64,000 nucleotides of DNA from Heptranchias perlo (lineage: Eukaryota). The stretch lies in the NCBI RefSeq assembly GCF_035084215.1, contig NC_090335.1, forward strand, positions 32,178,001 to 32,242,000, in the 5' to 3' direction. The position numbers and the translations under genes were made by a program. A model generated the notes under the pieces. That model was given only the letters and a program-made list of their open reading frames with translations, searched no databases and had not been told where the DNA came from. The stretch's first letter is position 1; every line of letters starts with the position of its first letter. This document shows positions 1,776-63,678 of the stretch, in pieces.

Positions 1776-1824
1776 AGATTAACTAGTTTACTTTAAATAG
1801 ATTAATGCCGCCACTAAAATCATA

Positions 1825-2006
1825 ATGTGGAGATGCCGGTGATGGACTGGGGTGGACAAATGTAAGGAGTCGCACAACACCAGGTTATAGTCCAACAGCT
1901 TTATTTGAAATCACAAGGTGAGTCCTGATGAAGGAGCAAAGCTCCGAAAGCTTGTGATTTCAAATAAAGCTGTTGGACTATAACCTGGTGTTGTGCGACT
2001 CCTTAC
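1825..2006. mobile_element. Non-coding Penelope pLTR-derived fold-back insertion with hammerhead core
   Basis: Homologous to 61100-61224. Perfect 56-bp inverted repeat 1862-1917/1951-2006; 12-bp TSD actaaaatcata at 1813-1824 and 2005-2016. Confidence 0.9.
1921..1958 (+). ncRNA. Minimal hammerhead ribozyme core, second copy (stem I 5' strand altered)
   Basis: CTGATGA (1925-1931)-a-ggagc/aaa/gctcc-GAAA-gctt-gtga. Confidence 0.65.
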
Positions 2007-2760
2007 TAAAATCATAGACAAAGGAATATTATATGAGTATGTTAAGTGTTTGTCTGCTAATATTGTTAGCAGTAATTTTTGCACGCAGACGATTTCAAGA
2101 GGAAGGTTCATGGTCAAACCTATGATGGAAACAAAACTAATGTTATCAAAATTAGAGCACGTGATCTACTGTGATCATGAACCATACCCAGTTTACCCAG
2201 TGAATTGGAGATACATTCTAATTGCAGGCAGAGGTGCTATTTAACTTGCATGCAACAATCTCCACTTTAAGATTTATGTTAAACTTCCAAACATAGTCAT
2301 CTAAAAATGCTTATTACATTGGTCAGAAGTGAGAAACAAATTCCTGTTTAATTTATGCTGCAGAATCTACAGTGTTTGAATTATTTAGCCCTGCACTACA
2401 TTTGAGAACTTAATTTATAGCAGGGACACTCTTTTGCTTTCTCCACTCTACTGGTAAAACCACCCCAGTGTGAGGGTTATTCCCCAACTCGAAGATTAGA
2501 CAATTGCCAGAACCCACCCCCCTCTACATCCTGTGATGAGTGGCTTTACCAGTACTCACCAGTACAGGGTCTTGTCCATAACCGTCCTAAACGTGGGAGA
2601 TTTAAAAACATAAATGCACAGTGTTTGTGCAAATTGAAATTAACCATTCAAAGTTGTGGGACAGAGGAGGCACTTATCAAGTAAGCGCTAATAAAATTAA
2701 TGCACTACAAACATGACATGAATAGGGCTGTTGCCAGCTTTGTTTTCCACTGCAGCTGTT

Positions 2761-2790: not shown

Positions 2791-3267
2791 ATGAATGCTG
2801 AAGCCAAGTCTGCAACTTCCTAAAATCCACCAGGATGGTAGTTTCCCTTTCATTTTATTTGTCATTCAATTGAAAAATTAGAGTGTTTATCGAGCTCTCA
2901 TTTGTTAGGCTCATTGGCTCAACTCTGGTAAAAAAAAGTGAATTCTTAGTCTGTATTGGGCTGTGGAAATTTCATATGAACCAAGTAACAAGTGCTTGTA
3001 TCTACATTTCTATGCTTGGAATCTGTTCAGGGGTCAAAGTCAGTTTTGTTTATTAATCTCAGAACTAACTGTAATCCCATGTTCCTACAGTCAAAATTAA
3101 TGCTGTAGATAATTTGAAGATGCACACTAATTTTGTAGTGGCCATTTGTACCACTGATTCTTCCTTTCTCTTTTGGTTTTCACTTTTCTAATATTCTTAA
3201 TTCCAACTACCCTTTTTTGTGTTTATTTAGCAGTCAGTCATTTACTCCCCTCCCCATCACTTAACTT

Positions 3268-3366
3268 ATGTAAGGAATCTTACAACACCAGGTTATAGTC
3301 CAACCTGGTGCTGTAAGATTCCTTACATTTGTACACCCCAGTCCATCACCGGCATCTCCACATCAT
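3268..3366 (+). mobile_element. Short Penelope pLTR-derived fold-back insertion
   Basis: Ends in cccagtccatcaccggcatctccacatca, like the Penelope at 61224. About 27-bp inverted repeat; flanked by direct repeat catcacttaacttat at 3255-3269 and 3364-3378. Confidence 0.88.
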
Positions 3367-4368
3367 CACTTAACTTATTCAGGGGTGATATTGTTAAAAA
3401 GGGCACTTCAGCAGTGATCTACTGTTGCAATTCAACCCTACCACAATCACCTTCTGGCAGGGATCAGGTACTAAAGCAACAGTGAAGAACAGTCACAGTT
3501 TCAGAGAGTGCAAAATAGCACGTCCTGGAAGTTTAATATTCGACAGTACATTTAGTAACTCCACCATGGTTTCTTTTAACCTGCTTCACTTCATCTGATT
3601 TTGCACTGCAATTCTTATTCATAGATTTTTTCTTCTATATTATGATCTGAGATTTAAGTACTTGCATTTATATTTTTGTATTTTGATAATACCTAAAAGG
3701 CACTTTCAATTAATGCTTTACATATGATTTGCTGCATGTCCAAAACATCAGAAGACATACAATTGATACGGAAAATGGTACAGTGGAAGCTCTTAAAAAT
3801 TGTAGGATTTCCAGGCATTTCTAGCCAATCTGGAGGCAAAAGATCACAAAGCACCAAATGGTATCTTTCTATCCTGTTATATTACTTCCATCAGCTTTTT
3901 ATTGTGCCTAGAAAGAAAAAAATATATAGTGAAATTACATCATCAATTTTTTTGGTCTGCCAGGTGTCTGACACATGTGGAAATCCATCACTGTGCTCAT
4001 GAGTCTCCATAACAAGCCACCAAGTAATCTATACCAGAGTATGTGTTATCACAATATGAAGTATGCACAGTTTCCCCACAGGGCCACATCCCTCATATCC
4101 AAATCCAGAATATTCTGGTGCAGGTTGGCAAGAGCCAAGGTTTAAGGACTCGTAAATGCACACAGTTATGGCTAGAGTTCAACCAGCTAAAACCATGCCA
4201 ACTTACCAGCAGCACACTGGTAAGGTAAGACCTCACCCTACCTGTTGAGACAATAGCTTGCAGCGTTATCTGAAGCCAAGTGGAAAGAATTATTGGCCCG
4301 ACTGACAGGTTTACCTCTCCAATTCCCTTTAATGAGCCAGGCTGGCTGGTTAATTAACACTGCTTGGG

Positions 4369-5030: not shown

Positions 5031-5274
5031 ATTACAGAACACCCTAGCTCAGCTATTGATTAATCTAGTTTGTCTGAGGTTTTACTCCATTCCAAGTAAC
5101 ATCTTCCAGCAGCTGTCATCCCAAACCTTTTTAGCAGTATATAGTCTTTCCTCCTTCTGGGACCCAAGCATTTTATGTTACAATAAAGTGTGCACTATAG
5201 GTTGTTGGGAAATTACCACAGTCTATAATTAAGGATCGAGCGACTGAACACCTTGAAAATTTTCAGCCGATCAG

Positions 5275-10619: not shown

Positions 10620-10769
10620 GGGATAAAAATTCCAGAGGTTCTCCTGATCTCCAACTGTAATTCTGGCAGCAAATGAGTGGAAACACTGGAGAAATGGTGA
10701 AAACAGCAGTTACAGTGGGAGATCGGGAAAACCCCAGTGGACATTCTACCCCAGTGGACATTTTACCCC
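10620..10769. mobile_element. Short MITE-like element with about 40-bp imperfect TIRs
   Basis: ggttctcctgatctccaactgtaa pairs with ttacagtgggagatcgggaaaacc; 17-bp tandem duplication at the right end; related end fragment near 23900-23937. Confidence 0.55.
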
Positions 10770-14128: not shown

Positions 14129-14379
14129 TTTATATGAAGCTGACCGTGCAAAATTTGCTGGGCCAGCACCAGGTCAGTCAGGTGGTTGAAAGCCCAACCC
14201 ATTACTTACGCTGTGGAGTGCACCAGGGAATAAAATCCCAGCTGGAGTATCAACCAGCTTTTATTGTATGGACAGCTTTACATCAGAACCTGATCATGTT
14301 TTTACCAGAAGTCCACACATCTGCACCTTCTAGAAGGGGTGTTAGCTGTTTGGTAAACTTAAGAGAGAGCGAGCGAGCT

Positions 14380-15080
14380 AAAGTGTAAGAGAGTGAGAAC
14401 GACAGACACAGCAAAAAGGTGATTCGGAAGAAGTGAAAGAAACAAGACTTTCATTGCCTCTTTGAAACGCATGGAGGAAATCAAGTGATAGTGATTTAAC
14501 CAGTGCACTTAGGGATGGCTGGAAATCATAAACACGGAGCATGTAATGTGAAGGAAGTTGAATGTAAAGCGGAATTAGCAAAACATCAGATAGGATCAAT
14601 GATGAATGGGAGGAGGCCATTGACATGAAGAAGGAACAGAGTGAGACAGAAGATGGGCCAATAGAGAACTCCTGATTTAATGGAAAGAGTCAGACGATGG
14701 CCATCAGATATATCAGATATTGTGATTTGAGAACAAACTAAATAGCCATAAATATAGTTTTTAGTGAGGGCGCATATGATGCAACATTGTTTAGAATTCC
14801 AGAATAATAGATCCTGTCAAAGCTTTGGACGTGTCCAAAGCGATGATAGATAATTGAATAGAATATTCAAGTACAGAGCACTACGAATACTTAAAAAGAT
14901 CAGCAGTGGAATGACCATGCCAGCAATCATTTATCAGGCCAGGTCTTTCAAGGTGATGGATTAAGAGAAGTTTCCATAACTAGGATGGAGCAGAGGTTAG
15001 CAAAGGCAGTGGGTGAACCTCTAACGAAGTGCAGACTTTCAACTGGGAATTTGGTGCAGGGGGGAAGGAGGTGCTAGGTG
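14380..15080 (-). mobile_element. Probable highly decayed L2-like fragment
   Basis: Pyrimidine-rich minus strand with weak resemblance to 13000-14128; no clean motif. Confidence 0.3.
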
Positions 15081-15159: not shown

Positions 15160-18100
15160 TAAGACGAGCGGAGCATAAAGGGAGCCACACAAGAAATCAG
15201 AAATCAAGAAAAAGTCAAAAAGTGACATCACAAGATAAGGAGGAGCGCTAAGGGTAAGTCAGTAAGTATTTCGTGCATTAGTTAGTGTTGTTAGTGGTTT
15301 GTATTTTTTTTAGTGGTTAGTGTTTTAGTGTTAGATAAATGGTAAATTGCCTTAAAGCTAAACAAACAGTTTAAATAACTGCAGCTAACACGGCAGGACA
15401 GCTGGGGCCTGTCGCATGCAGATCCTGTGCCATGTGGGAACTCCAGAACACTTCATGTGTCCTGGAAAACAACATGTGCGGGAAGTGTCGCCAACTGCTC
15501 GAGCTCGAGCTCAGAGTTTGAGTTTGAGGGATGGCTGGCATCACTACAGTGTGTACGGGAAGCTGAGAGTTTCGTGGATGGCATGATTCAGGAGGTGCCC
15601 TAGTAAAATTGAAGTCAATGGGAATCAGGGGGAAAACTCTCCAGTGGCTGGAGTCATACCTAGCACAAAGAAAGATGGTAGTGGTTGTTGGAGGCCAGTC
15701 ATCTCAGCCCCAGGACATTGCTGCAGGAGTTCCTCAGGGTAGTGTCCTAGGCCCAACCATCTTCAGCTGCTTCATCAATGACCTTCCCTCCATCATAAGG
15801 TCAGAAATGGGGATGTTCGCTGATGATTGCAGTGTTCAGTTACATTCGCATGCATCCAGGCTTGGGTTGATAAGTGGCAAGTAACATTCATGCCAGACAA
15901 GTGCCAGGCAATGACCATCTCCAACAAGAGAGAGTCTAACCACCTCCCCTTGACATTCAACGGCATTACCATCTCCGATTCCCCCACCATCAACATCCTG
16001 GGGGTCACCATTGACCAGAAAGACTGGAACAGCCACATAAATACTGTGGCTACAAGAGCAGGTCAGAGGCTGGGTATTCTGCAGCGAGTCACTCGCCTCC
16101 TGACTCCCCAAAGCCTTTCCACCATCTACAAGGCACAAGTCAGGAGGGTGATGGAATACTCTCCACTTGCCTGGATGAGTGCAGCTCCAACAACACTCAA
16201 GTCACACACCATCCCGACTTGGAAATATATCGTGTTCCTTTATCGTCGCTGGGTCAAAATCCTGGAACTCCCTACCTAACGGCACTGTGAGAGAACCTTC
16301 ACCACACGGACTGCAGCGGTTCAAGAAGGCAGCTCACCACCACCTTCTCGGGCAATTAGGGATGGGCAATAAATGCTGGCCTCGCCAGCGACGCCCATAT
16401 CCCATGAATGAATAAAAAAAAAAAAACGTGGTCACCCCGTAGCTACAGAGCGTTCAGGCGTAGAGGGAGTGGGTGACCACCAGACAGACTAGGAGGAACA
16501 GGCCGACAGGACAGGAGTACCCTGGAAGTATGGCACTCAAAAATCGGTATTCAGTGTTGCATACCAGTGAGGGTGTTGACACCTTGGGGGGAGTGCATTT
16601 GGGAGCAAATCCACGGCATTGTGGGAGACTCAGCTGCACAGGGGGGCAAAAGAAATGCAGTTGTTATGGGGGATTTGATAGTCAGGGGGATAGAAAGGCA
16701 TTTCTGCAACCGCCTATGAGAGTCCTGCATGGTGTGTTGCCTCCCTGGTGCCAAGGTAAAGGACATCACTGAGAGGGTGCAGAACATTTTGAGGCGGGAA
16801 GGGGAACAGCCAGAAGTCGTGGTCCATGTGGGAACCAATGACATAGGAAGGGTCGAGATCCTGCAGTCAGAGCTTCAGCAGCTAGTTAAAAAGCAGGATC
16901 GCAAAAGGTAATAATCTCTGGATTATTCCCAGTGCTATGCGCTAGTGAATATAGGAATAGTAGGATAAGACAGGTTAATGCGTGCCTGGAGCAATGGTGC
17001 AGGGCTTCAGATTCCTGGGGCATTGGGATCAGTTCTGGGGCAGGAGGGATCTGTTCAAGATCTGTTGAGGGTTGCACCTCAACAGAGGTGGGACCAATGT
17101 CCTCGAGGACAGGTTAATTTGTGCTGTGTGGGGAGGGTTTAAACTAATTTGTCAGGGGGATGGGCGTCAGGATGAAACATTAGAGAGAAGAAACAAGGTG
17201 CAGAGAGGACTGGGAGGAACAAGTAGCAATAGAGTAAAGAATAGTTCAGAAATAGGAGGGATCAGACAAGGGGGAAATGTGAGGCAATCTAAGATGAATT
17301 TAGAGTGCATGTGCGCAAACGCACAGTGTGGTGAATAAGTTTGGTGAGCTGCAGGCTCAAGTTGCCACATGGGACTATAAAAAGTGGCAGTAACAGAGAC
17401 CTGGCTCAAAGAAGGGTAGGACTGGGTACTTAATATTCCTGGCTACAAGGAACGATAGGGAAGGAAAGAAAAAGGGGGGGGGGAAATGGGGTGGCAGTAT
17501 TGATCAAATAAACTATTATAGCACAGGAAAGGAATGATGTAGTTGAGGAGTCAAAGATAGAATCTATTTGGTTAGAATTAAGGAACAACAGAGGAGCTGC
17601 ACGCTACTGGGTGTATACTATAGGCCACCAAAAAGTGGGAAAGAGATAGATGAGAAAATTTGCAGGCAAGATACAGAAAGATACAAGAACTATAAAGTAG
17701 TGATTATGGGGGCATTCAATTATCCCGATATAGACTGGGTCAGTAACAGTGTAAAGGGCAAAGAGGGGGAGGAATTCCTGAAATGTGTTCAAGAGAACTT
17801 TCTGGAACAATGTGTTTCCAGCCCAATGAGAAAGGAAACAGTGCTGAATCTAGTTCTGGGAAATGAAGTGGGGCAAGTGGAGCATGTTTCAGTGGGGGAG
17901 CATTTGGGGAACAGTGATCATAATATCATTATGTTTAGAATAGTTATGGAAAAGGACAAGGGACAATCAAATATGAAAATGCTTAATTGGCGGAGGGCAA
18001 ATTTCAGTGAGTTAAAAAGGGATCTTGCCCAGGTAGATTGGAATTAAAAATTGGTAGGCAAAATAGTAACCTTCAAGCGAGGAGTTGGTTCGGGTACAGA

Positions 18101-20142
18101 GTAGACATATCCCGACGAGGAGGAAAGGAAGGGTATCCAAAGCTAGAGCTCCCTGGATGACTAAAGATATAGACATTAAAATGAAACAGAAAAAGGAGGC
18201 TTATGATGAATGTAAGGTTCATAATACAGTAGAGAACCAGGCCGAATACAGAAAGTGCAGAGGAGATCTAAAAAAGGGAATAAGAGGGGCCAAGAGAGAG
18301 TATGAGAATAGATTAGTGGCTAACATAAAAGGGAACCCAAAAGTCTTTTATAAATACATAAATAGTAAAAAGGTAGTCAAAGGAACGATGGGGTCGATTA
18401 GGGACAAAAAAGGAAATCTTGTGGAGGCAGAGGGCATGGCTGAGGTACTAAATGAGTACTTCGGATCCATCTTCACCAGAGAAGACGATGCTGCCACTGT
18501 AGCAGTAAAGAAGGAGGTAGTAATGATATTGGATAGGATAAAGACAGGTAAAGTAGAGAAAAAGATAGGCAGTTCTCAAAGTAGATCCAGATGGGATGCA
18601 TCCTAGGTTACAGAGGGAAGTAAGGGTGGAAATTGCAGAGGCTCTGGCCACAATCTTCCAATCCTCCTTAGATATGGGGACGGTACCGGAGGACTGGAGG
18701 ATTACAAATGTTACACCCCTGTTCAAAAAAGGGGAGAGGGATAAACCTGGCAATTACAGGCCAGTCAGCCTAACGTCAGTGGTGGGGAAACTTTTAAAGA
18801 CAATAATCCGGGACAAAATGAATTGGCACTTGGAAAAGTATGGGCTAATAAATGAAAGTCAGCATGGATTTGTTAAAGGAAAATCATGTTTGACTAATTT
18901 GATTGAATTTTTTGATGAAGTAACAGAGAGGGTTGATGAGGGTAGTGCAGTTGATCTTGTGTATATGGACTTTCAAAAGGCATTTGATAAAGTACCACAT
19001 AATAGACTTGTTAGCAAAATTAAAGCCCATGGGCTTAAAGGGACAGTGGCAGCGTGGATACAAAATTGGCTAGGTGACAGAAAGCAGAGAGTAGTGGTGG
19101 CCGGTTGTTTTTCAGACTGGAGGGAAGTATACAGTGGTGTTCCCCAGGGGTCAGTATTAGGATCACTGCAGTTTTTGATATATCCTGGACTTGGGTATAG
19201 AGGGTATAATTTCAAAGTTTGCAGATGACACGAAACTCAGAAATGTAGTAAACAATGAGGAGGATAGTAACAGACTTCAGGAGGACATAGACAGACTGGC
19301 GAAATGGGTAGAAACGTGGCAGATGAAATTTAACGCAGAGACGTGTGCAGTGATGCATTTTGGTAGGAAGAATGAGGAGAGGCAATATAAACTAAATGGT
19401 ACAATTTTAAAGGGGGTGCAAGAACAGAGAGACCTGGGGGTGCACATACACAAATCTTTGGAGGTGGCAGGACAAGTTGAGAAGGCTGTTAAAAAAGCAT
19501 ATGGGATCCTGGGCTTTATTAATAGAGGCATAGAGTACAAAAGCAAGGAAGTTATGCTGAACATTAATAAAACACTGGCTGGGCCTCAGCTGGAGTATTG
19601 TGTTCAATTCTGAGCACCACACTTTAGGAAGGGTGTTAAAGCCTTAGAGAGGGCACAGAAGAGATTTACTAGAATGGTGCCAGGGATGGGGGGGGGCTTC
19701 AGTTATATGGAGAGACTGGAGAAGCTGGGGTTATTCTCCTTAGAACAGAAAAGATTAAGGGGAAATTTGATAGAGGTGTTCAAAATCTTGAACGGTTTTG
19801 ATAGAGTAAATAGGAAGAAACTGTTTCCAGTGGCAGAAGGGTCGGTAAACAGAGGTCACAGATTTAAGGCAATCGGCAAAAGAGCCAGAGGTGACAGGAG
19901 GAAACATTATTTTTTAAACACAGCGAGTTGTAATGTTCTGGAATGCACTGCTTGAAAGGGTGGTGGAAGCAGATTCAATAGTAACTTTCAAAAGGGAATT
20001 AGATGAATACTTGAAGGGAAAAGATTTACAGGGCTATGGGGAAAGTGCAGGGGAATGGGACTAATTGGATAGCTCTTTTGAAGAGCTGGCACAGGCACAG
20101 TGGGCCGAATGGCCTCCTCCTGTGCTGTACCTACTACGGTAC
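15160..20142 (+). mobile_element. Near full-length CR1 LINE: ORF1 (zinc finger/leucine zipper + SGNH esterase) and ORF2 (APE endonuclease + RT), disabled
   Basis: ORF1 CxxC..CxxC near 15410-15490, GDS motif, CLPGAKVKDI, VVHVGTNDIG. ORF2 [44 protein letters not shown]. Multiple stops and frameshifts. Confidence 0.95.
15598..16427 (+). mobile_element. 5'-truncated poly(A)-tailed CR1-group LINE (family B) inserted into CR1 ORF1
   Basis: [26 protein letters not shown]; A-tail near 16414-16426; host ORF1 resumes at gtggtcacccc. Confidence 0.92.
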
Positions 20143-31086: not shown

Positions 31087-31671
31087 TCACATTTACCAAA
31101 ATCGAAAAAAATACAAAACCCTAATCAAAAAGAGCTTGAAGCATTACTGCCTATTGGAAGCTAATAGGAAGGTAGAGCTTGGTGATCCCTCAGGTTCCGA
31201 GCAGTTTAAGAATTTTATTTATTGTATTGCTGGCCACATGAAAAGTACCTCCCCCTCCCCAAAAAGTACTATTAACAAACATCAAGCTGAGGCAAGCAAT
31301 TTGTGCACTATGAATATGACAATCACACATTTTCCTCTGTAGCAGCACAGATTTGACTTGTCCAGTGTGGTGCGATTTTCTGGAGGTTAAACATAACATA
31401 GAACAATATAAATTTACAGCACAGGAGGTGGCCATTCAACTCTTTGGGCTCAATTTTCAATGGGCACGCGGCAAACCCGGATAATAACTTACCTTTCCCC
31501 ACGCGATCGAGAGTTGATTGGTGGCCCTTAACGTGGCTTCTGGGTTTGCCATCCGAAAGCTGAGCAGTGGGCGGACTGCGCACCCACATTACAGGCTGTC
31601 AGCTGGAGCATCTGTATTAAAAGGGCCATTGCTCCAATGGCTTTTGCTAGAGCAAAGACCAAAAAGACACA

Positions 31672-33554
31672 ATGGAGCAGCACAAGGCCAAGGTTGCTCC
31701 AAGACTTAATGATGCCTCACTCCAGGTGCTACTGGCTGGGGTGAGGAGGAGGGGGGAACTGTTTTACCCGGCCAACAGGAGGAAGTGCCCTGCTTCTGCC
31801 ACCAAGACGGCCTGGCTCAAGGTGGCAGTGGAGGTCACGAGCAGGAATAACATATCCCACACCTGGATCCAGTGCAGGAAGCGATTCAATGACCTTACTA
31901 GGTCAGCAAAAGTGAGTACACTTACTGATTCTCCTACATTCCATGGTGCACATCAACAACCCCCCCACGCCCCCACCGCCAATTCATTCTACACTGCCAA
32001 GACTACTCCATCACATATTTCCTCACACCCACTTAAGACTCATCCTCAACTTACCTGCACTTCCTCACCCCACCACTACCACTCACCCCAATCCTCATCC
32101 AATGTCATGGCTGTTTCATACTCACCCTCTGATGCATCTCTTTCACCATCAGCCTCACCCAAAGCAATGCATTCATGGGCTGACCACTTCACCATCACTC
32201 ACGCGTCTGTACTTTCTCCCCTTCTAGGAGAAGGGAGCGCAAAATGCACGCAAAAGGGTGAGGACTGGAGGGGGGCCACAACAAGTAGTGATCCTCACAG
32301 ACATGGAGGAGGAGGCATTGGAGATTAGTCGCACTCTCGAGTGCCTGTCCGGCCGGGATGCTGAGACAGGCACCCACAAATGTCTGGTGACACAACTTTA
32401 ACATTCATCACACACAACATGAATTGATGTTAACAATGCTTGGCATGTTGAACACCTTAGTATGCTCATCGCAACAGGACACATCTGTGATGATGCTTAA
32501 TATTGCCTTCTGTTCTCTTACAGGCCGATCAATGACGGCAGTGGCGGGAGAGGGCGATTCCTCAGAGGAGGTCCCGGCCTCTGAGGACGCACCATCACAT
32601 CTTAGCGAATCATCCACCAGCGCAGTCAGTTAGTTGGGTTGGCACCTGGTGAATCACCACACACAAGTGAGCACGAGCAGACACTGGTGGCAGGGGCAGC
32701 TGAGGAGAATCCGTGTTGGTGGGCGCACTCCTCTCCAGGCTCTGCTCAGCTGGATGCAGATGCTGAACCCCGGGAGCCATCCTTTAAAAGGAGAATGATC
32801 GAGGGACAGCAGCACATTTGTGAGATACTGGAATAGGTGCCACGCACACTCTCCAAAATAGCGCAGAGGATGGAGGGGTCCAACTCCTGCACGAATGGAA
32901 TTGTGGCACAGGTATGTGAGGGAATCTCAGATAGTGGCACAGGGATGTGAGCAACTGTCTGAGATAGTGTCGCAGGTAGCTGCGGAAATGTCTGAGATAG
33001 TGTCACAGGTAAGTGCAGGAATGTCTGTGATGGAGAGGCTAGCCTCTGTTGAGCTTCAAGCACGGTTCACAAATGAGCCCATTCAGGTCCTGACAATGGC
33101 CGTTCGGACTCAGGGTGAACAACATTCTGCCGCCTTAAACAGGCTGACAGATGCTTTGGAAGTGGCCTTCCAAGGCATCACACATGTCCTCCAAACTGTT
33201 GTCCAGCAGGGTGGTAGGAGTGATGTGGGCCTGGCCCAGGAGAGGGATGATGGCAAAAGGGTACATGGAAGAGGGGACACCACTCAAAGCGCTCCCACAT
33301 CTCACCCGTTGCCCTGCTGTGAACCAGTACCCACAATGCTGCCTCCTCTCCAGGTGGCCAAGTCTGCCCCTGCACAGTTGCAGGTGGAGCAGTCTTTGGA
33401 GGGGCCCTCATGGGCTCCGAAAGCCAGTGGGCGTAGGCCCAAAGCATTTAAGCAGGCAGGACATGAACATGAGCAACCTGCCACTACCTCTGCTGCAGCC
33501 ACAGGGGATGTACCACGTAGAAGTAGTAGGAAGAGAACGGCTAAGGATTTGTGA
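31672..33554 (+). pseudogene. Harbinger H2 Myb/SANT-like gene, three exons
   Basis: Exon 1 31672-31911 (AWLKVAVEV..WIQCRKRFNDL, then gtgagt); exon 2 from 32228 after ccccttctag; exon 3 from about 32524 after ctcttacag; ends in basic RRSSRKRTAKDL. Stops and frameshifts present. Confidence 0.88.
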
Positions 33555-33874: not shown

Positions 33875-35073
33875 CTAGAACCGTTCACGTATGAGTGACT
33901 CCCTGGCCTCACGAGCAGCCAGGTGAGCCGCTGCTCTGCCCATGGGTTCGTCCTCCTCCTCCTCCTGCTCCTCCTCACTGTGAATGGCAGATATGAATGG
34001 TGGATGAGGGCATGGGGCTTCCTCAACTGGTACCCCTCTCTGTTGCGCCATGTTGTGCAGGACACAACACACTACTATAATGCGACCCACTCTCGCTGGT
34101 GCGTATTGAAGCACTCCCCCTGAACAATCGAGGCACTGAAATCGCACCTTGAGCTGCCCTATCGCATGTTCAATTATAGACCTGGTGGTGATGTGGCTGT
34201 CGTTGTATTGATGCTGTTGCTCGCTGATGGGGTTCCTCAGAGGTGTCATGCGCCATGTGTGCAGGGGGTATCCCTTGTCCCCGAGGAGCCAGCCCTTAGA
34301 GGTGTTTGGTGCGTGGAAGAGGCCTGGGATGTTGGATTCCCTTAGAATCGTGGCAGCTGCCAGAGAATCTGGCGCACACGTGAAGGAATCTTTTGTGGTG
34401 GTCACAAACGAGTTGAGCGTTGATGGAGTGATACCCCTTTCTGTTGATGAACAGTCCTGGCTCGTGTGGAGGCGCTCGTATTGCTATATGGGTGCAATTG
34501 ATCGCACCCTGAACCCATATAGCAATACGAGCGCCTCCACACGTGGGAAGCCAGCCACAGAGCGGAATCCCACTGCCTTCTCTGTCTGGCTGAGGTCGGC
34601 CATGGAGAAGTTGACGTATTGTGAGGCTCTGCGAAACAAGCCATCGGCGACCTGCCTTATGCACTTGTGTGCAGATGACTGAGAGACCCCGGCGATGTCA
34701 CCGGTGTCACCCTGGAATGAACTGGAGGTGAAGAAGTTGAGGCTAGTGGTGACTTTAACTGCGACGGGTAATGAGATGCCGCAAGGCCTAGCCAGGTGCA
34801 GCTTGGCATGAAGGAGGCTGCAGATGTCGGTGACCACCTGGCGACTCACTCAGCCTCCGAGAGGTCCAGGAAGCTGAGCCTCGGTCTGTAGACCCTCTGG
34901 CGAGGGTAGTGACTCCTGCGACGTCGCTCCCTCTGTGCTCTTGTGCAGGTCCCAGTGGTACAGCGCTGTGTTATGGAGCTCCAAGTGGCGGAAGTGCACA
35001 CCATGCCTGGGCGAGGATGGTGATGTTCCTTGTCCTCGGATGTACTGGGGAATGCAGGAATCGTGCCCCCCAT
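33875..35073 (-). pseudogene. Harbinger H2 DDE transposase, disrupted
   Basis: [59 protein letters not shown], acidic tail. Confidence 0.93.
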
Positions 35074-39730: not shown

Positions 39731-40429
39731 AATATATTATATCCTATTATGTTCCATTCTTGTCCAATTACCATATAAACAGAATGCCACATAGTCCCAG
39801 TGCAAAACCGCAGGTGTGTAACTCATGACCTGCACCAGACAAAACATATGCAATATATTGTCACCTGCATGTGCAGAGAGGTTTACTTGCTTAAACGTGG
39901 TATCACACCAGAATTTGTGAAGCATCCTGTACATTCTTTTAACTGTGGAACCTAGATTTGAATTCTGCCCAGACTAATGCAATGAATGTTTTCTTTCTCT
40001 GATGATTGAATGAGTCCTACATGAGGATAGGCAATCATAGCTCAGTTCCATGTAAAACAAGGTCCATAGCTTAAAACTACCCATAATGCAGCAAAATTTG
40101 CATTAAACTGGTAACCATACTCAAAGAGGCCAGAAGGTTCACATATATGGGAAATGCAATTCTTGCACAGGTGCAGTATAGAACATTTTTTTAAGGCGGG
40201 GGTTAAGTTACATTGTTGGAGAAAGAGTTTATTCCATATTTATCCCACATGTGACCCAAAAAGTCCTCAATGCAGACACTGGGTGCCCAAAATCCAAAAA
40301 AGTGTTTCAATTACCAGTATTTACATTGCAGAACTCATGAGAACCAAAATAACTTCTTGGATATTTCAAGAACATTGCTTCAAGGTTTTATTCACTGTGT
40401 TTCAATCCTAATACAACTACAATTTGCAC

Positions 40430-47580: not shown

Positions 47581-49306
47581 ATTTTTTTTTTATTCGTTCA
47601 CAGGATGTGGGCGTCGCTGGCGAGGCCAGCATTTATTGCCCATCCCTAATTGCCCTCGAGAAGGTGGTGGTGAGCCGGCTTCTTGAACCGCTGCAGTCCG
47701 TGTGGTGACGGTACTCCCACAGTGCTGTTAGGGAGTTCCAGGATTTTGACCCAGCGACAATGAAGGAACGGCGGTATATTTCCAAGTCGGGATGGTGTGT
47801 GACTTGGAGGGGAACGTGCAGGTGGTGGTGTTCCCATGTGCATGCTGCTCTTGTCCTTCTAGATGGTAGAGGTCGCGGGTTTGGGAGGTGTTGGAGCTGC
47901 ACTCATCCAAGCAAGTGGAGAGTATTCCATCACACTCCTGACTTGTGCCTTGTAGATGGTGGAAAGACTTTGGGGAGTCAGGAGGTGAGTCACTCGCCGC
48001 AGAATACCCAGCCTCTGACCTGCTCTCGTAGCCACAGTATTTATATGGCTGGTCCAGTTCAGTTTCTGGTCAATGGTGACCCCCAGGATGTTGATGGTGG
48101 GGGATTCGGCGATGGTAATGCCGTTGAATGTCAAGGGGAGGTGGTTAGACTCTCTCTTGTTGGAGATGGTCATTGCCTGGCACTTATCTGGCGCGAATGT
48201 TACTTGCCACTTATGAGCCCAAGCCTGGATGTTGTCCAGGTCTTGCTGCATGCGGGCTCGGACTGCTTCATTATTTGAGGGGTTGCGAATGGAACTGAAC
48301 ACTGTGCAGTCATCAGCAAACATCCCCATTTCTGACCTTATGATGGAGGGAAGGTCATTGATGAAGCAGCTGAAGATGGTTGGGCCTAGGACACTGCCCT
48401 GAGGAACTGCTGCAGCAATGTCCTGGGGCTGAGATGATTGGCCTCCAACAACCAATACCATCTTCATTTGTGCTAGGTATGACTCCAGCCACTGGAGAGT
48501 TTTCCCCCGGATTCCCATTGACTTCAATTTTACTCAGGCTCCTTGGTGCCACACTCGGTCAAATGCTGCCTTGATGTCAAGGGCAGTCACTCTCACCTCA
48601 CCTCTGGAATTCAGCTCTTTTGTCCATGTTTGGACCAAGGCTGTAATGAGGTCTGGAGCCGAGTGGTCCTGGCGGAACCCAAACTGAGCATCGGTGAGCA
48701 GGTTATTGGTGAGTAAGTGCCGCTTGATACCACTGTCGACGACACCTTCCATCACTTTGCTGATGACGGAGAGTAGACTGATGGGGCAGTAACTGACCGG
48801 ATTGGATTTGTCCTGCTTTTTGTGGACAGGACATACCTGGGCAATTTTCCACATTGTCGGGTAGATGCCAGTGTTGTAACTGTACTGGAACAGCTTGGCT
48901 AGAAGCGCAGCTAGTTCTGGAGCACAAGCCTTCAGCACTACAGCTGGGATGTTGTCGGGGCCCATAGCCTTTGCTGTATCCAGTGCACTCAGCCGTTTCT
49001 TGATATCACGTGGAGTGAATCGAATTGGCCGAAGTCTGGCTTCCGTGATGGTGGGGATATCGGGAGGAGGCCGAGATGGATCATCCACTCGGCACTTCTG
49101 GCTGAAGATGGTTGCAAACGCTTCAGCCTTGTCTTTTGCACTCACGTGCTGGACTCCGCCATCATTGAGGATGGGGATGTTTACAGAGCCTCCTCCTCCC
49201 GTTAGTTGTTTAATTGTCCACCACCATTCACGACTGGATGTGGCAGGACTGCAGAGCTTTGATCTGATCCGTTGGTTGTGGAATCGCTTAGCTCTGTCTA
49301 TAGCAT
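47581..49306 (-). mobile_element. Young 5'-truncated family B LINE (RT domain to poly(A))
   Basis: ORFs 48534-49145 and 47859-48527: PISLLSVISKVME, QFGFR, LDIKAAFDRVWH, PQGSVLGP, FADD; T-run at 47582-47591. Confidence 0.95.
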
Positions 49307-49828
49307 GACAGCAGTTTATAAAGTTATATTATATTGTATCTTTGTTATATGATCAATTTTATTTTAGGAGTATATAATCAAGTAGATGAAAAGCTGCCTT
49401 GGCTTTGTCTTAGCATTTAATTTTGCTGGAATGTGACTGGGTAGAATATTCTTAGGTGGAATGTATTTGGAGACAAAACTGAAATTGGGGAATAAGGTTT
49501 TGCATAAAATGACTGGTGGACAATGAAAGTAGAAAATAGCCACATCGCAAAGGAGAAAAACAGAGACCTAAATAGAATTAAACAGCAAGGGAGAGATATT
49601 TAACCAATTAGAATGAAAACTGATCACCGAGGTGACAGATTCAATGCACACTACCGACACGAGAAACATAAAGATTTAAACATCACTATTGTAATTTTAC
49701 CACAATCTATTGAGGGGAATACAAAATTCCCCTTCTATGAAAATCTATTCAAAAACTAAGTTTGAATACCTCCATCACTAACTAACCTGTGGCAAATTGC
49801 AAGTAGTTTCTTAAAAGTTCAAACTTAC

Positions 49829-53815: not shown

Positions 53816-54747
53816 TTGATGTGACTCATCTTTCTTTGCACTGCTCTCTATTAATTAACTTTATAAGAAAAGGGAAGAAAATGCTGAGCCCTCCAAATAT
53901 TTATCCTATTATTATTCATGACCCTGCAACATATTTTTGAAGGTAATTTTTTTTGCAACACAAGAAATGACAACTGAAACTGCTCCATGAAATCACTTAT
54001 CGTTGTGATGCCATTCCTTGTTACAGTCAAGTGACTACCAGGGTCCAATAAGCAACAGTTACCACATAATAACTCAGTCACATTCTTCTCTCAGACCAAT
54101 TACAGCGCTCAAAAATAATCTTCAAGGGATGAAAGAAACACTTGCATATAGAACGTTATCACATCCCTCAGAAAACTCCCAAAGCACCTCACACAATGAA
54201 TTACTTTGAAAAGAAATAAAATAAATTATAAATAAATCAAACACACACACACAAACAAATAAAAAACAAATGAACATTTTAGATTCTTCAATGACATACA
54301 ATAGTTACTGCAAATATTTGAAGCAGAGGAAGATACATGGCTATGGGGGGGCAGTGGAATTAGTTTTGAATTCCTCAAGTAAAGACCCAGCACATACACA
54401 GTGGGCCAAATGGAATCTTTTCATGCTATAAACTTCTATTTATTGGCTACATGAAAATGAACACCCTTAAAATTTGAAATGCTGCTCATAGTTGTCCTCA
54501 CTCAGCTAACAGTGCATAAAAATCTCCATTTCAATTGTTAAATTTAACATACTACCAGAAAAAATAACTATTCAAAGTCAGTCTGAACAAAATATAAGTT
54601 TGCAAATTTGCAGAGCAGCATCTCATAACAAGTTTAAAAGCTAGCCAACATGCACAAAACCAAAATGCCTATTCAGTTCCTCTGTACCCTGATCATGATT
54701 GTAATCACTCAATACAATAATGGAAATATGTCATTAGATGCAACTTA

Positions 54748-54858
<111 letters not shown>

Positions 54859-55793
54859 CTAAAGCAGACAGCACCTTCATTATCAAAGCAACAGATAAAA
54901 TAAACAAAGCTTTACATTTTATTACAAGCCTAATGACACTGAATGAAGGGTCCAACTTTTTGTAATAGTCATTTTCACAGTGAGTACTGTGGTAGGAATC
55001 TTTGTCTATACCTTCTTTCTAAAAAAGACAATTCCAATAGGGACATATTTGTCTGGTGGTTTTAGTACTGTTTCAGATCAGACTTCAAGATTAAAATTTT
55101 GAGTACTTGGAGCAAGGATTGATTTGCAGCATAGATCACTCAATTCAGAATGGCATCGAGGTCAGAATTATTCTCTGAACAGGCCAATGTTTTCATTGTT
55201 TTTATTCATCCTAAACTGCATTACAAATGTCAAAAAACAATTTTTTTTCAGGCAACACAGTGGTATTGCACATTAGAGCCATTCTCATACCAGTTTAGAG
55301 CAACAGTGGAGAGATAGAGTAGGTTGGGTTAAAGGCAAAAATCAGAAAAGAAACATTTTCATAACATTGCAAAAGAAAAGGCAAACAGTAATGGGGTGTA
55401 GATAACAATCTTCCAAAAAAGTAGCATTTTCTGAACTAAATTAATTTCTATAGGATTTCACATTCAGATAAGTATATAAAACATTGTGAGATCAGTTGTA
55501 GCCAAAAAAGCGCACTGCTCTAACTTCAGCATATTAGTTATTTTAAGCCATGCAAAATTGGCATTTTAATGCCATAAGAATCAAAATCTAAAGCCTATAT
55601 TTCTTGCATACAAATCTTAGTTTAAATAAAGGCCATTATTCCAACCACATCTTGCTCCTTTTCTAGTGTTTTTTCACGGCTTATGCACCGAACCAATATA
55701 CAAATATTTCATAAAAAAACAACTGAATAAGAATTGATCAGAACATTTTCCTGAATGGGTTGCTTGAAGTTTCAATAGTATCAGTAGCTTTAC

Positions 55794-55931
55794 CCATATA
55801 AGCCAAGAATCAACTGTTCCAAACATAGCCCGGTTATCCGCCACTGCTTGCTTAACTTGATCCACATTATCCAGAAGCCACCTTAGTTTCACAGCACTGA
55901 AATAGGTGCTGATTGGAAGGCCAGTTTTTGC
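55794..55931 (-). CDS. GK: Glycerol kinase exon: [46 protein letters not shown]
   Basis: tcgttttag acceptor, TGG|gtaaag donor, 138 nt; carries the FGGY kinase signature [13 protein letters not shown]. Confidence 0.97.
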
Positions 55932-59140: not shown

Positions 59141-59648
59141 ATCCTTCTACCAATTACTTTAAATCTATGCACCCTGGTTATTGACCTCTCTGCGAAGGGA
59201 AATAGGTCCTCCCTATTCACTCTATCTAGGCCCCTCATAATTTTGTACACCTCAATTAAGTCACCCCTCATCCTTCTCTGTTCCAAAGAAAACAACCCCA
59301 GCCTATCCAATCTTTCCTCATAGCTAAAATTCTCCAGTTCTGGCAACATCCTCATAAATCTCCTCTGTACCCTCTCTAGTGCAATTACATCCTTCCTGTA
59401 ATGTGGTGAACAGAACTGTATGCAGTACTCAAGCTGTGGCATAACTAGTTTTATTATACAATTCTAGCATAACCTCCCTGCTCTTATATTCCAAGCCTCA
59501 GTTAATAAAAGAAAGTATTCCATATGCCTTCTTAACCACCTTATCTACCTGTCCTGCTACCTTCAGGATCTGTAGACAAGCACTCCAAGGTCCTTCACTT
59601 CCTCTACAACTCTACAACCAGTTCTTTACCCAAACACACGGAACAGCC

Positions 59649-60827
59649 ATGGGGACCAAATTCGCACCCCAATACACCAACATTTTCATGCACAAGTTCG
59701 AGCAGGACTTCTTCACTGCACAGGACCTCCAACCAACGCTATACACCAGATACATCGACGACATTTTCTTTCTATGGACCCACGGCGAAGAATCACTAAA
59801 GAGACTACACGATAACATCAACAAGTTCCATCCCACCATCAAGCTCACCATGGACTACTCCTCAGAATCAGTTTCTTTCTTGGACACACGAATCTCCATC
59901 AAAGACGGGCACCTCAGCACCTCACTCTACCACAAGCCCACGGACAACCTCACGATGCTCCACTTTTCCAGCTTCCACCCTAACCACGTCAAAGAGGCCA
60001 TCCCCTATGGACAGGCCCTGCGAATACACAGGGTCTGCTCAGACGAGGAGGAACGCGATGGACACCTACAGACGCTGAAAGACGCCCTAGTAAGAACGGG
60101 ATGTGACGCTCGACTCATCAATCGACAGTTCCGACGGGCCACAGCGAAAAATTGCATAGACCTCCTGAGAAGACTAACACGGGATGCAACCAACAGAGTA
60201 CCCTTCGTCGTCCAGTACTTCCCCGGAGCGGAGAAACTACGCCATGTTCTCCGCAGCCTTCAACATGTCATCAATGACGACGAACACCTCGCTATGGCCA
60301 TCCCCACACCTCCACTACTCGCCTTTAAACAGCCACACAACCTCAAACAGACCATCGTTCGCAGCAAATTACCCAGGTTTCAGGAGAACAGCGTCCATGA
60401 CACCACACAACCCTGCCACGGTAACCTCTGCAAGACATGCCAGATCATCGACACAGATACCACCATCACACGAGAGGACACCACCCACCAGGTGCATGGT
60501 TCATACTCCTGTGACTCGGCCAACGTTGTCTACCTCATACGTTGCAGGAAAGGATGCCCCAGAGCATGGTACATTGGCGAGACCATGCAGACGCTGCGAC
60601 AACGGATGAACCGCGCAACAATCGCCAGACAGGAGGGTTCCCTCCCAGTCGGGGAACACTTCAGCAGTCAAGGACATCCAGCCACCGACCTTCGGGTAAG
60701 CGTACTCCAAGGCAGCCTTCGAGACACACGACAACGCAAAATGGTCGAGCAGAAATTGATGGCCAAGTTCCGCACCCATGAGGACGGCCTCAACCGGGAT
60801 CTTGGGTTCATGTCACGCTACACGTAA
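59649..60827 (+). CDS. Penelope ORF, C-terminal part: RT palm/thumb and GIY-YIG endonuclease (N-terminally truncated)
   Basis: GTAMG, RYIDDIF, VSFLD, LYHKPTD, SFHP, CxxxxCxxC, VVYLIRC..WYIGET; 392 uninterrupted codons. Confidence 0.93.
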   Translation: MGTKFAPQYTNIFMHKFEQDFFTAQDLQPTLYTRYIDDIFFLWTHGEESLKRLHDNINKFHPTIKLTMDYSSESVSFLDTRISIKDGHLSTSLYHKPTDNLTMLHFSSFHPNHVKEAIPYGQALRIHRVCSDEEERDGHLQTLKDALVRTGCDARLINRQFRRATAKNCIDLLRRLTRDATNRVPFVVQYFPGAEKLRHVLRSLQHVINDDEHLAMAIPTPPLLAFKQPHNLKQTIVRSKLPRFQENSVHDTTQPCHGNLCKTCQIIDTDTTITREDTTHQVHGSYSCDSANVVYLIRCRKGCPRAWYIGETMQTLRQRMNRATIARQEGSLPVGEHFSSQGHPATDLRVSVLQGSLRDTRQRKMVEQKLMAKFRTHEDGLNRDLGFMSRYT

Positions 60828-61097
60828 CCCCACCAGCGAACAAAAGTTATCTGTTTTTAATATAACGGGTCATTTTCTGTCGTTCTCTTCCTTCCGGATG
60901 TTTCTATGTTTCTGCCTCTCTCTCTCTCTGTTTTTTTTTTTTGGTTGTTTGTATATTCGGTGGCCCTGTAAGTAAAACTTCTCTGTCTGAACGCTTTGAT
61001 TGCCTTGGCAACGGGCAGTTGGAAAGACTATCTGTAATCACCAGGTATTGTTCTGTGATTTATAAATGCGAAAGGTTCGAGGATTTCATTTCCACAT

Positions 61098-61134
61098 TCA
61101 CCTGAGGAAGGAGGAAGCCTCCGAAAGCTTGTGA
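61098..61134 (+). ncRNA. Minimal type I hammerhead ribozyme motif in the Penelope pLTR
   Basis: tcac-CTGAGGA-a-ggagg/aag/cctcc-GAAA-gc-TT-gtga: conserved core, stem I and stem II, with stem III reduced to the palindrome AGCT. Confidence 0.8.
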
Positions 61135-61569
61135 TTTTCAAATACAATTGTTGGACTATAACTTGGTGTTGTAAAATTGTTTACAATTGTCAACCCCAGT
61201 CCATCACCGACATCTCCACATCACATATAGAACTCTCAGTATCCTCCCATTTATTGGGTATTCCCTTGCCTTGCTTGCCCTCCCCAAATGCATTACCTCA
61301 CACTTCTCCCAGATTGAATTCCATTGCCACTTTTCTGCCCACCTGATCAGTCCATTGATATCTTCCTGCAGTCCACAGCTTTCCTCCTCACTATCAACCA
61401 CACCGCCAATTTTTGTACCATCTGCAAACTTCTTAATCATGCCCCCTACATCTAAGTCCAAATCATTAATATATACCACAAAAAGCAAGGGACCTAGTAC
61501 TGAGCCCTGTGGAACCCCATTGGAAACAGCCTTCCAGTCAGAAAAGCATGCGTCGGCCATTACCCTTTA

Positions 61570-62114
61570 GAGTCATAGAATCATAGAAAGGTTACAGCAC
61601 GGAAGGAGGCCATTCGGCCCATCGAGTCCGCGCCAGCTCTATGCAAGAGCAATCCAGCTAGTCCCACTCCCCTGCCCTTTCCCCGTAGCCCTGCAAATAT
61701 TTTCCTTTCAAATACTTATCCAGTTCCCTAATGAAGGCCATGATTGAATCTGCCTCCACCGCCCCCTCAGGCAGTGCATTCCACATCCTAACCACTGGCT
61801 ATGTAAAAAAGTTTTTCCTCATGTCACCTTTGGTTCTTTTGCCAATCATCTTAAATCTATGTCCTCTGGTCCTTGGCCCTTCCGCCAATGGGAACAGTTT
61901 CTCTCTATCTACTCTGTCTGGACCCTTCATGATCTTGAATACTTCTATCAAATCTCCTCGCAACCTTCTCTGTTCCAAGGAGAACAACCCCAGTTTCTCC
62001 AGTCTATCCATGTAACTAAAGTCCCTCATCCCTGGAATCATTCTAGTAAATCTCTTCTGCACTCTCTCTAAGGTCTTCACATCTTTCCTGAAGTGCGGTG
62101 CCCAGAACTGGACC
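61570..62114 (-). mobile_element. Nested young CR1 3' fragment
   Basis: VQFWAPHFRKDVKTLERVQKRFTRMIPG through an (ttctatga)n tail. Confidence 0.9.
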
Positions 62115-62468
62115 AATTGAGCCAATTTTGGATCCAACTTGCCACTTTCCTTTGGATCCCATGGGGTTGTACTTTTTTGACCAGTCTGCCACGTGAGACC
62201 TTGTCAAAAGCCTCGCTAATATCCATGTAGACTACATCAAATGCACCTCCCTCATTGAATTTTTTGAGGTGGTAACAAGGAGGGTCAATTAAGTTAGTCA
62301 GACACAACCTTTCTTTAACATATCCGTCCTTGATTACTCCATGCCTTTCTAAGTGACAGTTTATCCTGTCCTTCAGAATTGATTCCAATAATTTGCCCAC
62401 CATCGAGATTAGATTGACTGGCCTGTAAACACTCGGTCTTATCCCTCACTCCTTTTTAAACAATGTTA

Positions 62469-62668
62469 GAACATAAGAAAATAAGAAACAGGAGCAGGAG
62501 TAGGCCATCCGGCCCCTCGAGCCTGCTCTGCCATTCAACAAGATCATGGCTTATCTTTTACCTCAACACCATTTTCCTGCACCATCCCCATATCCCTTGT
62601 GCCTTTAATATCTAGAAATCTATTGATCTCTGTTTTGAATGTACTCAATGAATGAGCCTCCACAGCCC
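62469..62668 (-). mobile_element. CR1 3' tail fragment
   Basis: aacataagaaa...ggagtaggccatccggcccctcgagcctgc. Confidence 0.8.
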
Positions 62669-63678
62669 AGAAGTTGTGTCACCAGATGTTTGTCGGGTGC
62701 CAGTCTCGGCATCCCCGACGGACAGGCACTCGAGGGTGCGGCCGATCTGCAGGGCCTCCTGCTCCGCGTCTGTGAGGACCACTATTTGATGCGGCCTTCC
62801 CTTCAGTCCTCGCCCTATCGTGTGCATTCTGAGCTCTCTTCTCCTAGAAGGGGAGAAAGTACAGAAGTGTGAGTGGGTGAGGGTGAAGTGACCAACCAAT
62901 GAATGCATTGCTTTGGGTGAGGCTGACCGTGAAAGAGATGCATCAGAGGGTGAGTGTGAGACAGAGTCATCACATCGGATGAGGATTGGGGTGAGTGGTA
63001 GTGGTGGGGTGACTAATAGGGACGTGAGGAAGTGCTGGTAAGTTGAGGGTGAGCTTAAGTGGGTGTGAGGAGTGATGTGATGGAGTAGTCTTGGCAGTGC
63101 AAAATGAGTTGTGGCAGGGAGTTGGGGGGGGGAGGGCGGTGATATGGAACACGGAATGCAGGAGAATCAATAAGTGTACTCACTTTTGCTGACCTAGTTA
63201 GGTCATTGAAAAGCTTCCTGCACTGGACCCAGGTGCAGGAGATGTTGCTGCTGCTGGTGACCTCCTCTGCCACCTCGAGTCAAGCCTTCTTGGTGGCAGG
63301 TGCAAGGTACTTCCTTCCATCCATGGGGTAAAAGACTTCCCTCCTCCTCCTCACCTCATCCAGTAGCTGCTGCATCATTGAACCTTGGAGCAGCCTTGCC
63401 CCTGTGTTGCTCCATATTGTGTGTTTTTTGGTGTTTGCTCCAGCAAAAGCCATTGAAGCAATGGCCCTTTAAATATAGCCGCTCCAGCTGACAGCCTGTC
63501 ATGCGGATGTGCAGTCCGCCCACTGTGCAGCTTTCGGATGGCAAACCCGGAAGCCACGTAAAGGGCCACCAATTAACTTGCGATCACGTGGGAAACAGTA
63601 GGATTTTATTAGTTGGGTTCCCCGCGCGCCCACTGACCCCTCCACTGCCATCCCGCCACCCATACAAAATCAAGCCCC
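62669..63678 (-). mobile_element. Harbinger H2 fragment: one end plus Myb exons 1-2
   Basis: Reverse-complement homologue of 31446-32400 (MEQHRGKAAPRFND; WVQCRKLFNDLTRSAK); terminus aaaatcaagcccc. Confidence 0.9.

What the first reader, a model, noticed from the sequence alone, without database searches (positions are those of the whole stretch)
61098..61134. Minimal hammerhead ribozyme in the terminal repeat of a Penelope element
Seen: CUGAGGA and GAAA core boxes, a 5-bp stem II, a UCAC/GUGA stem I, and stem III collapsed to the palindrome AGCU before a CUU cleavage triplet, about 270 nt downstream of the Penelope stop codon. The copy at 1925-1953 has stem II ggagc/gctcc instead of ggagg/cctcc, a compensatory base-pair change that suggests selection on RNA structure. 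Established: Penelope-like elements carry minimal type I hammerheads thought to cleave as dimers. Inference: this family processes its RNA by self-cleavage after position 61130. The motif is antisense to GK pre-mRNA, so it should not cut the host transcript.
Basis: partly seen in the sequence, partly recalled or inferred. Interest (0 to 1): 0.7.

Follow-up and report, generated by a model that had tools for sequence, protein, structure and literature searches.

The report
Penelope hammerhead at transcript start
This is a real copy of a known tiny self-cutting RNA motif at the end of a very abundant jumping gene, but the ends of its genomic copies pile up just before the motif rather than at the predicted cut, so the element's RNA likely starts there and is likely copied into DNA mostly uncut.

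Summary
The motif is there as described (61098-61134; predicted cut after 61130), 271 nt after the stop of a 5'-truncated Penelope-like element, in an intron of a minus-strand glycerol kinase gene. It fits the published minimal hammerheads of Penelope-like elements. A core pattern has 82,670 exact matches in this genome (control 2). Intact 3081-bp tandem units with a 902-aa ORF exist; the cut lies 92 nt before the ATG. In two subfamilies the commonest end lies 29-31 nt after a TATA box. Best reading: the ribozyme heads a TATA-driven RNA that is mostly copied uncut; cutting is likely slow and limited to tandem transcripts. This lone antisense copy is likely inert. The scan noted the same pattern before, in this and other genomes.

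The parts
61098..61134 (+). Minimal type I hammerhead motif (stem I 61098-61101/61131-61134; core 61102-61108; extra A 61109; stem II 61110-61122; GAAA 61123-61126; AGCU 61126-61129; predicted cut after U 61130)
   Evidence: sequence; family variation
61061..61067 (+). TATA-like box TATAAAT, candidate promoter of the terminal repeat
   Evidence: TATAWA within 70 nt before the core in 42 of 56 long reference copies; commonest copy ends 29-31 nt downstream in two subfamilies. Function inferred
61086..61092 (+). Initiator-like TCATTTC; candidate start at A61088
   Evidence: the initiator consensus YYANWYY is recalled; no sharp peak was seen for this copy's own subfamily (9 ends)
59616..61223 (+). 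5'-truncated Penelope-like element, inserted in a CR1-like LINE remnant (CR1 label recalled from its translation)
   Evidence: homology to other copies begins at 59616 and ends near 61223; about 93% identical to intact units
59616..60827 (+). ORF remnant: RT C-terminal half, CX4CXXC linker, GIY-YIG-type endonuclease motifs; lacks two residues including one conserved His of the intact protein
   Evidence: (RVT_1 E 1.6e-6); endonuclease motifs by eye, no Pfam hit
61131..61223 (+). Rest of the terminal repeat: equals the 5' UTR up to the ATG of the next tandem unit; copies end near 61186 or 61223 (37-nt optional tail)
1813..2016 (.). Head-to-head stub of a sister subfamily between 12-bp direct repeats (1813-1824, 2005-2016); core and stem II at 1925-1953 but no stem I; 56-bp perfect arms 1862-1917/1951-2006
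3256..3378 (.). Third, shorter head-to-head stub without the ribozyme, between 14-bp direct repeats (3256-3269, 3365-3378)
55794..55931 (-). Glycerol kinase exon (host gene; another at about 54709-54867; upstream exons lie beyond the window end)
   Evidence: best PDB match glycerol kinase, E 2.5e-21

Best explanation
The motif is the minimal hammerhead of a young, very abundant Penelope-like retrotransposon; it likely sits at the very start of a TATA-driven transcript that is likely reverse-transcribed mostly uncut, with cutting predicted to be slow and confined to tandem transcripts where two motifs can pair. Shown: anatomy, copy number, 3081-bp tandem units, 92 nt from cut to ATG, copy 5' ends 1-20 nt before the core, no junction peak at the cut. 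Inferred: Pol II starts about 30 nt after the TATA box (10-17 nt before the core); the enzyme primes near +84 or +121 of the first repeat and runs off the RNA start, giving 100-140-bp stubs, or primes in the second repeat, giving long copies like this one; AGCU of two motifs pairs to form stem III, probably with help from the element's protein. Selection acts on source elements, not on inserted copies. This single, antisense, partnerless copy is likely inert.
For: Ends: 72 of 191 de-duplicated copy ends at -20..-1 from C3, 8 at -40..-21, 1 at -60..-41, 4 at +27..+31 and none at +28..+30; 23 of 35 ends joined directly to flank are at -20..-1. The peak moves with the TATA box: TATA at -46, 11 of 30 ends at -17..-15; TATA at -40, 6 of 13 at -10. 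Junction counts +27..+31: 47, 54, 91, 108, 122. Structure kept: core unchanged in all 15 haplotypes seen twice or more; N7 varies (77 G, 40 C, 1 U of 118); stem I paired in 115-118 of 118 per pair, mostly by wobble changes; 22 cells changed on both sides against 8.3+-2.1. CpG at C11.1-G12 decays in 11 of 118 against 5 of 82 at a tail CpG. In the anole element unprocessed RNA was the main substrate, ribozyme mutants inserted normally, cleavage needed the protein, and no RNA reads ended at the cut (PMC11167929). Low in vitro activity of dimers (PMC4209133).
Against: No RNA start or end was observed: all runs laid were contigs of uncertain RNA origin. The pile is 20 nt wide, many ends are fold-back junctions steered by microhomology, and 19 of 85 ends lie less than 27 nt from the TATA box (5 from one deleted reference). 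Position 0 itself is not piled (30 matches, about 480 after correction, against about 290 at the cut). Direct-to-flank junctions are commoner at +29 than +30 (18 of 50 against 6 of 41, Fisher p 0.03), and 3 of 11 such junctions in the +31 set are cut-site junctions of register-shifted subfamilies, so a small cut signal is possible. All 5 sampled repeats followed by an ORF extend upstream of the proposed start, which needs longer-than-unit or circular templates.
Confidence: 0.6

Rival explanations
1. Cut-and-circularise: two motifs 3081 nt apart excise a unit-length RNA that is ligated into a circle, and rolling reverse transcription of the circle makes the long and tandem copies. Stubs come from a separate pool of uncut RNA.
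For: Exact 3081-bp period with a motif per unit and 100%-identical tandems; all 5 ORF-bearing repeats carry sequence upstream of the proposed start, as does every long copy (69 of 191 ends lie beyond -60); ligation restores the cut site, so the junction test cannot see it. Proposed in PMC4209133. Compatible with the best explanation.
Against: No direct sign of circles; read-through from existing tandems explains the same copies; the double-hammerhead fold (-18.9 kcal/mol) is no better than two monomers (-19.8) and much worse than an inactive swapped dimer (-29.3 for a slightly longer piece).
Confidence: 0.3
2. One reading: efficient self-cleavage after 61130 defines the 5' end of the RNA that is copied.
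For: Intact conserved core; about 33 direct junctions at +29, one followed by the ORF start (L240) and one joined to a tail (L248).
Against: These amount to roughly 100 of about 60,000 matching copies after correction (my estimate), similar to +31 (about 33-45); 0 of 191 sampled ends at +28..+30.
Confidence: 0.08
3. The ends pile up because reverse transcriptase stalls or switches template at the hammerhead fold, not because the RNA starts there; the motif may be a protein-binding or translation element that no longer cuts.
For: Many ends at -5..-2 coincide with stem I; most ends in the pile are joined to inverted element sequence; U17 and the 1-bp stem III predict poor cutting (NUH ranking recalled).
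Against: The sharp peaks track the TATA box, not the core; catalytic positions are kept while N7 and loop II vary.
Confidence: 0.15

Closest known systems
Minimal hammerheads (min-HHR) in pLTRs of metazoan Penelope-like elements (Cervera and De la Pena 2014, PMC4209133; parts 1-2 of 4 read)
   Same: Type I topology, 4-5-bp helix I, unpaired base between A9 and 10.1, G10.1-C11.1, palindromic 15.2-16.2, no loop 3, many solo copies and opposite-strand pairs, several sequence families.
   Different: Stem II is 4-5 bp (7-8 bp in their Schistosoma families); 82,670 exact matches here against about 4,000 in coelacanth and 9,000 in Xenopus by their descriptor (methods differ); the parts read do not map copy ends.
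Poseidon element PAc of Anolis carolinensis (Frangieh et al. 2024, PMC11167929; parts 1-2 of 4 read)
   Same: Tandem pLTR-ORF layout, two 3' end sites defining a tail, hammerhead in the pLTR, uncut RNA as template.
   Different: There the cut is 26 nt inside the ORF and priming is 111-118 nt into it; here the cut is 92 nt before the ATG and the tail ends at the ATG. This element has the Cys linker that Penelope/Poseidon lack.
Neptune (or Nematis) clade EN+ Penelope-like elements (Craig et al. 2021, PMC8557442; passages read)
   Same: Single ORF with RT then GIY-YIG endonuclease, CX2-5CxxC linker, CCHH residues, partial tandems, inverted 5' copy, 30-40-bp tail.
   Different: Clade not tested by phylogeny; no (TA)n target bias was tested.
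Non-LTR retrozymes (PMC7229834, passages; bioRxiv 10.64898/2026.07.22.740005, part 1 of 5 and passages)
   Same: Type I hammerhead in short repeats related to PLE pLTRs.
   Different: The short copies sampled here are single or head-to-head stubs with target duplications, not head-to-tail arrays, and the motif is minimal, not canonical.

Membership tests
PLE minimal type I hammerhead | Core CUGANGA ... GAAA ... UH | tested here: met
   each core position kept in at least 111 of 118 copies
PLE minimal type I hammerhead | Helix I 4-5 bp, helix II closed by G10.1-C11.1, one unpaired base after A9 | tested here: met
PLE minimal type I hammerhead | Palindromic collapsed helix III (15.2-16.2) | tested here: met
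   G and C in 118 of 118
PLE minimal type I hammerhead | Located in the terminal repeat of a PLE, one per tandem unit | tested here: met
   L141, L145, L138, L142
PLE minimal type I hammerhead | Covariation in the stems | tested here: inconclusive
   cell-based measures 0/500, pair-based 101/500 and 27/500; related sequences; 45 of 50 haplotype rows plus 2 window copies
PLE minimal type I hammerhead | Self-cleavage as a dimer | not testable with these tools
   no assay; no clear genomic footprint
Rfam hammerhead families | Match to a curated hammerhead model | tested here: not met
   none at E<=5
EN+ Penelope-like element | Single ORF with RT and C-terminal GIY-YIG endonuclease | tested here: met
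   902-aa P0001, RVT_1 E 2.5e-10; VYLIRCRKGCPRAWYIG and downstream R, H, E, N residues by eye; Pfam gave no endonuclease hit
EN+ Penelope-like element | Partial tandems, inverted 5' copies, optional 30-40-bp tail, target duplications | tested here: met
Neptune clade | CX2-5CxxC linker between RT and endonuclease | tested here: met
   CHGNLCKTC in P0001 and in the window ORF; shared with Nematis
Neptune clade | RT phylogeny | not tested
   no named reference proteins fetched
Non-LTR retrozyme | Head-to-tail short repeats each with a hammerhead | tested here: inconclusive
   none among sampled copies; one contig joint 61223 to 61098 in run X2; no genome-wide search

The most novel reading that the evidence does not exclude
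The hammerhead is a switch at the cap of the element's mRNA: uncut capped RNA is translated and yields the tens of thousands of stubs, while protein-assisted pairing of two motifs 3081 nt apart removes the 40-45-nt capped leader and frees a unit RNA that circularises and alone regenerates promoter-bearing tandem copies. The genome's 80,000-plus copies then record both routes and map the start site by subfamily.
Probability: 0.25. Interest if true: 0.65.

Novelty: new member of a known kind. Interest (0 to 1): 0.33.

Why it matters
What hammerheads do in Penelope-like elements is stated to be unclear (PMC8557442). This family is young, has intact units and a very large copy number, so the question is testable: its copy ends argue that cut linear RNA is not the usual template, agree with the one in vitro study, and give exact predicted start, cut and priming sites. 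The motif class itself is known since 2014 and this copy has no likely effect on the host gene.

Tried and rejected
Rfam: no hammerhead model matched; the MIR396 hit at 1882-1985 is the stub's long hairpin, far below the family cut-off. Single-strand folding is not better than shuffles. PDB search with P0001: 0 hits. Bacterial promoter scan: irrelevant consensus. A first end map lacked references for one subfamily and miscalled 10 long copies as short; corrected, which also dropped 9 of 200 anchors as local duplicates. A spliced leader as the cause of the pile was rejected: no constant exon precedes the short copies. An added G at junctions (cap trace) was seen at only a minority of the -17/-16 ends by eye. 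Cut-site footprint: hand count of the first 100 of 1,023 matches gave 8-9 at +29 against 4-6 at neighbours, but exact counts show no peak; estimated direct-to-flank junctions are 9, 19, 33, 16, 45 for +27..+31 from 30 of 47, 20 of 54, 50 of 91, 41 of 108 and 30 of 122 examined. Public runs: all contigs, RNA origin guessed, so no start, end or strand; in other organisms' runs the stretch upstream of 61089-61095 has little or no cover, which is not counted as evidence. The subfamily identity figures (upstream 0.62, motif 0.86, downstream 0.81) are biased because subfamilies were defined by upstream divergence. The 3' end count had a one-base register slip for one reference (10 ends at +74 are artefacts). 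Lunse et al. 2017 was not held; known only through a review's passage.

Full report
Observation. The sequence at 61098-61134 is UCAC-CUGAGGA-A-GGAGG-AAG-CCUCC-GAAA-GC-UU-GUGA, a type I hammerhead layout with a 4-bp stem I, an extra A after A9, a 5-bp stem II and stem III reduced to the palindrome AGCU; the predicted cut follows U61130. A relaxed descriptor finds only this site and 1925 in the window, both on +. The fold alone is not significant (z -1.10) and no Rfam hammerhead matches. The family is what makes it real: a pattern fixing the core and leaving N7 and 11 stem II bases free has 82,670 exact matches in the 3.25-Gb genome, against 2 for the reversed control. Positions below count from C3 = 61102 = 0, so the cut product starts at +29.

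The element. The motif lies 271 nt after the stop of an ORF remnant with an RT domain. Homology to other copies runs from 59616 to about 61223, so this copy is 5'-truncated; the 40 best matches to its end are 98-100% identical. Intact units occur in tandem with a 3081-bp period and one motif per unit; they encode a 902-aa protein with RT, a CX4CXXC linker and GIY-YIG-type motifs seen by eye (no Pfam hit). By the description in PMC8557442 (passages) the linker points to Neptune or Nematis; no tree was built. The terminal repeat is the 5' UTR of the next unit: the cut lies 92 nt before the ATG with no upstream ATG. Copies end near +84 (61 of 186) or +121 to +124 (74 of 186), the optional tail known from these elements. 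I did not identify the organism; earlier scan notes call it a shark.

The second copy. The 1925 copy belongs to a sister subfamily and is a head-to-head stub between 12-bp direct repeats with perfect 56-bp arms. It has no stem I and its cut site is paired in the hairpin, so it cannot be a working partner; it is also 59 kb away.

Selection on structure. I sampled 200 copies by two 23-mers lying downstream of the cut (first 100 places each, of 55,139 and 48,461), 191 after removing local duplicates. In the 118 that span -8 to +39, each core position is kept in at least 111, N7 varies, and all 15 haplotypes seen twice or more keep the core. Stem I changes are mostly wobble-compatible (24 G-U, 41 U-G) with a few double changes; stem II pair 5 is G-C 51, A-U 31, G-U 17, A-C 17, G-G 1, C-G 1. 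On 47 distinct rows, 22 cells change on both sides against 8.3+-2.1 in shuffles, but the pair-based measures are not exceptional (101/500, 27/500). Inserted copies decay: the CpG at C11.1-G12 is mutated in 11 of 118, a tail CpG in 5 of 82. Contigs from two other organisms' runs cover the motif from stem I onward, with indels at 61113-61119 in and beside loop II.

Is the copied RNA cut? If it were, 5' ends should sit at +29. Instead 72 of 191 ends lie at -20..-1, 8 at -40..-21, 1 at -60..-41, 22 at 0..19, 4 at +27..+31 (one at 27, three at 31), and 69 lie beyond -60. Counting head-to-head pairs once, 54 of 157 insertions end at -20..-1. Among ends joined directly to flank, 23 of 35 do. Genome-wide patterns that demand four non-element bases before a given position give 47, 54, 91, 108 and 122 matches for +27 to +31. 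Sorting samples of these into direct and element-derived junctions gives estimates of 9, 19, 33, 16 and 45. +29 exceeds +30 (18 of 50 against 6 of 41, p 0.03), and 3 of 11 direct junctions in the +31 set are really cut-site junctions of shifted subfamilies, so a small excess is possible, but it is at most about 0.2% of copies by my estimate. Position 0 is no richer than the cut by more than about twofold, so the pile lies upstream of the core.

What sets the pile? The peak follows the TATA box by 29-31 nt, the usual spacing for Pol II (recalled). A TATA and initiator in a Penelope pLTR were also noted in rotifers (PMC3846280, passages), and the Drosophila element has its promoter in the pLTR (PMC2377424, passages). 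The window copy has TATAAAT at 61061 and TCATTTC at 61086, but its own subfamily showed no sharp peak in 9 ends. No RNA data could test this.

Mechanism. Most likely the RNA starts 10-17 nt before the core, stays uncut, and is primed near +84 or +121; priming in the first repeat gives stubs that end at the RNA start, priming in the second gives long copies. This matches the anole element, where uncut RNA was the main substrate and cleavage needed the protein (PMC11167929). Cutting, if it occurs, needs two motifs; the double hammerhead is not favoured by energy and published dimers cut poorly (PMC4209133). All 5 sampled ORF-bearing repeats reach upstream of the proposed start, so new active copies need longer-than-unit templates: read-through of tandems or a ligated circle, which this test cannot distinguish.

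Known versus new. Minimal hammerheads in PLE terminal repeats of fishes, amphibians and reptiles are published (PMC4209133); a 2026 preprint sampled one cartilaginous fish for related retrozymes. Five paper searches listed none that maps copy ends against the cut or treats a shark genome with Penelope and ribozyme; supplements were not seen. The scan itself has noted this family and the upstream pile many times (419 notes by words; 241 in this genome); those notes are not independent support, and I had seen the pile before reading them. Verdict: real, a new member of a known kind, moderate-to-low interest; its value is as a testable case for what these ribozymes do.

Noticed in passing
L348, L352, L357, L372 and the list: Copies of the GTGGA subfamilies carry C or A instead of U at position 17 (CUC, CUA triplets); about 20 of the 100 listed begin with C or A before GTGG. 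Possibly sublineages with a better cleavage triplet.
   Followed up: partly
L240 (about 1500, minus strand) and L248: One copy starts exactly at the predicted cut and continues into the ORF start; another joins a tail end directly to the cut position. Candidates for copies of cut RNA.
   Followed up: partly
L221/L222, L252, L254, L286, L311: Head-to-head stubs whose centre of symmetry lies within 1-2 nt of the predicted cut; not counted against other centres.
   Followed up: no
run X2 on window 61098-61223: A contig joint from 61223 back to 61098, as expected of a head-to-tail ribozyme-plus-tail unit (retrozyme-like) or a rearranged copy.
   Followed up: no
window 33875-34849 (-) and 31651-33554 (+): DDE_Tnp_4 transposase remnant (E 1.2e-19) facing a Myb/SANT-like ORF (E 0.0012): Harbinger-like DNA transposon (label recalled); similar Myb-like fragments at 9345-9911 and near 62645-63166.
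   Followed up: partly
window 4257-7546, 13031-14388, 17547-19613, 47859-49328, 61204-62445: Many decayed LINE-type RT and endonuclease fragments (CR1/L2-like by eye).
   Followed up: no
L138, L141, L142, L144 (G000:C1 1.5-4.5 Mb): Intact tandem units sit beside minisatellite arrays; L141 holds 5130 bp of 100%-identical tandem overlap, implying very recent activity or duplication.
   Followed up: partly
window 10633-10737 and 40254-40342: Weak hairpin matches to miRNA models far below cut-off; not examined.
   Followed up: no
L102-L104, L184-L185, L187-L188 (G000:C1 3.93-4.01 Mb): Stubs duplicated together with a flanking tandem repeat.
   Followed up: no
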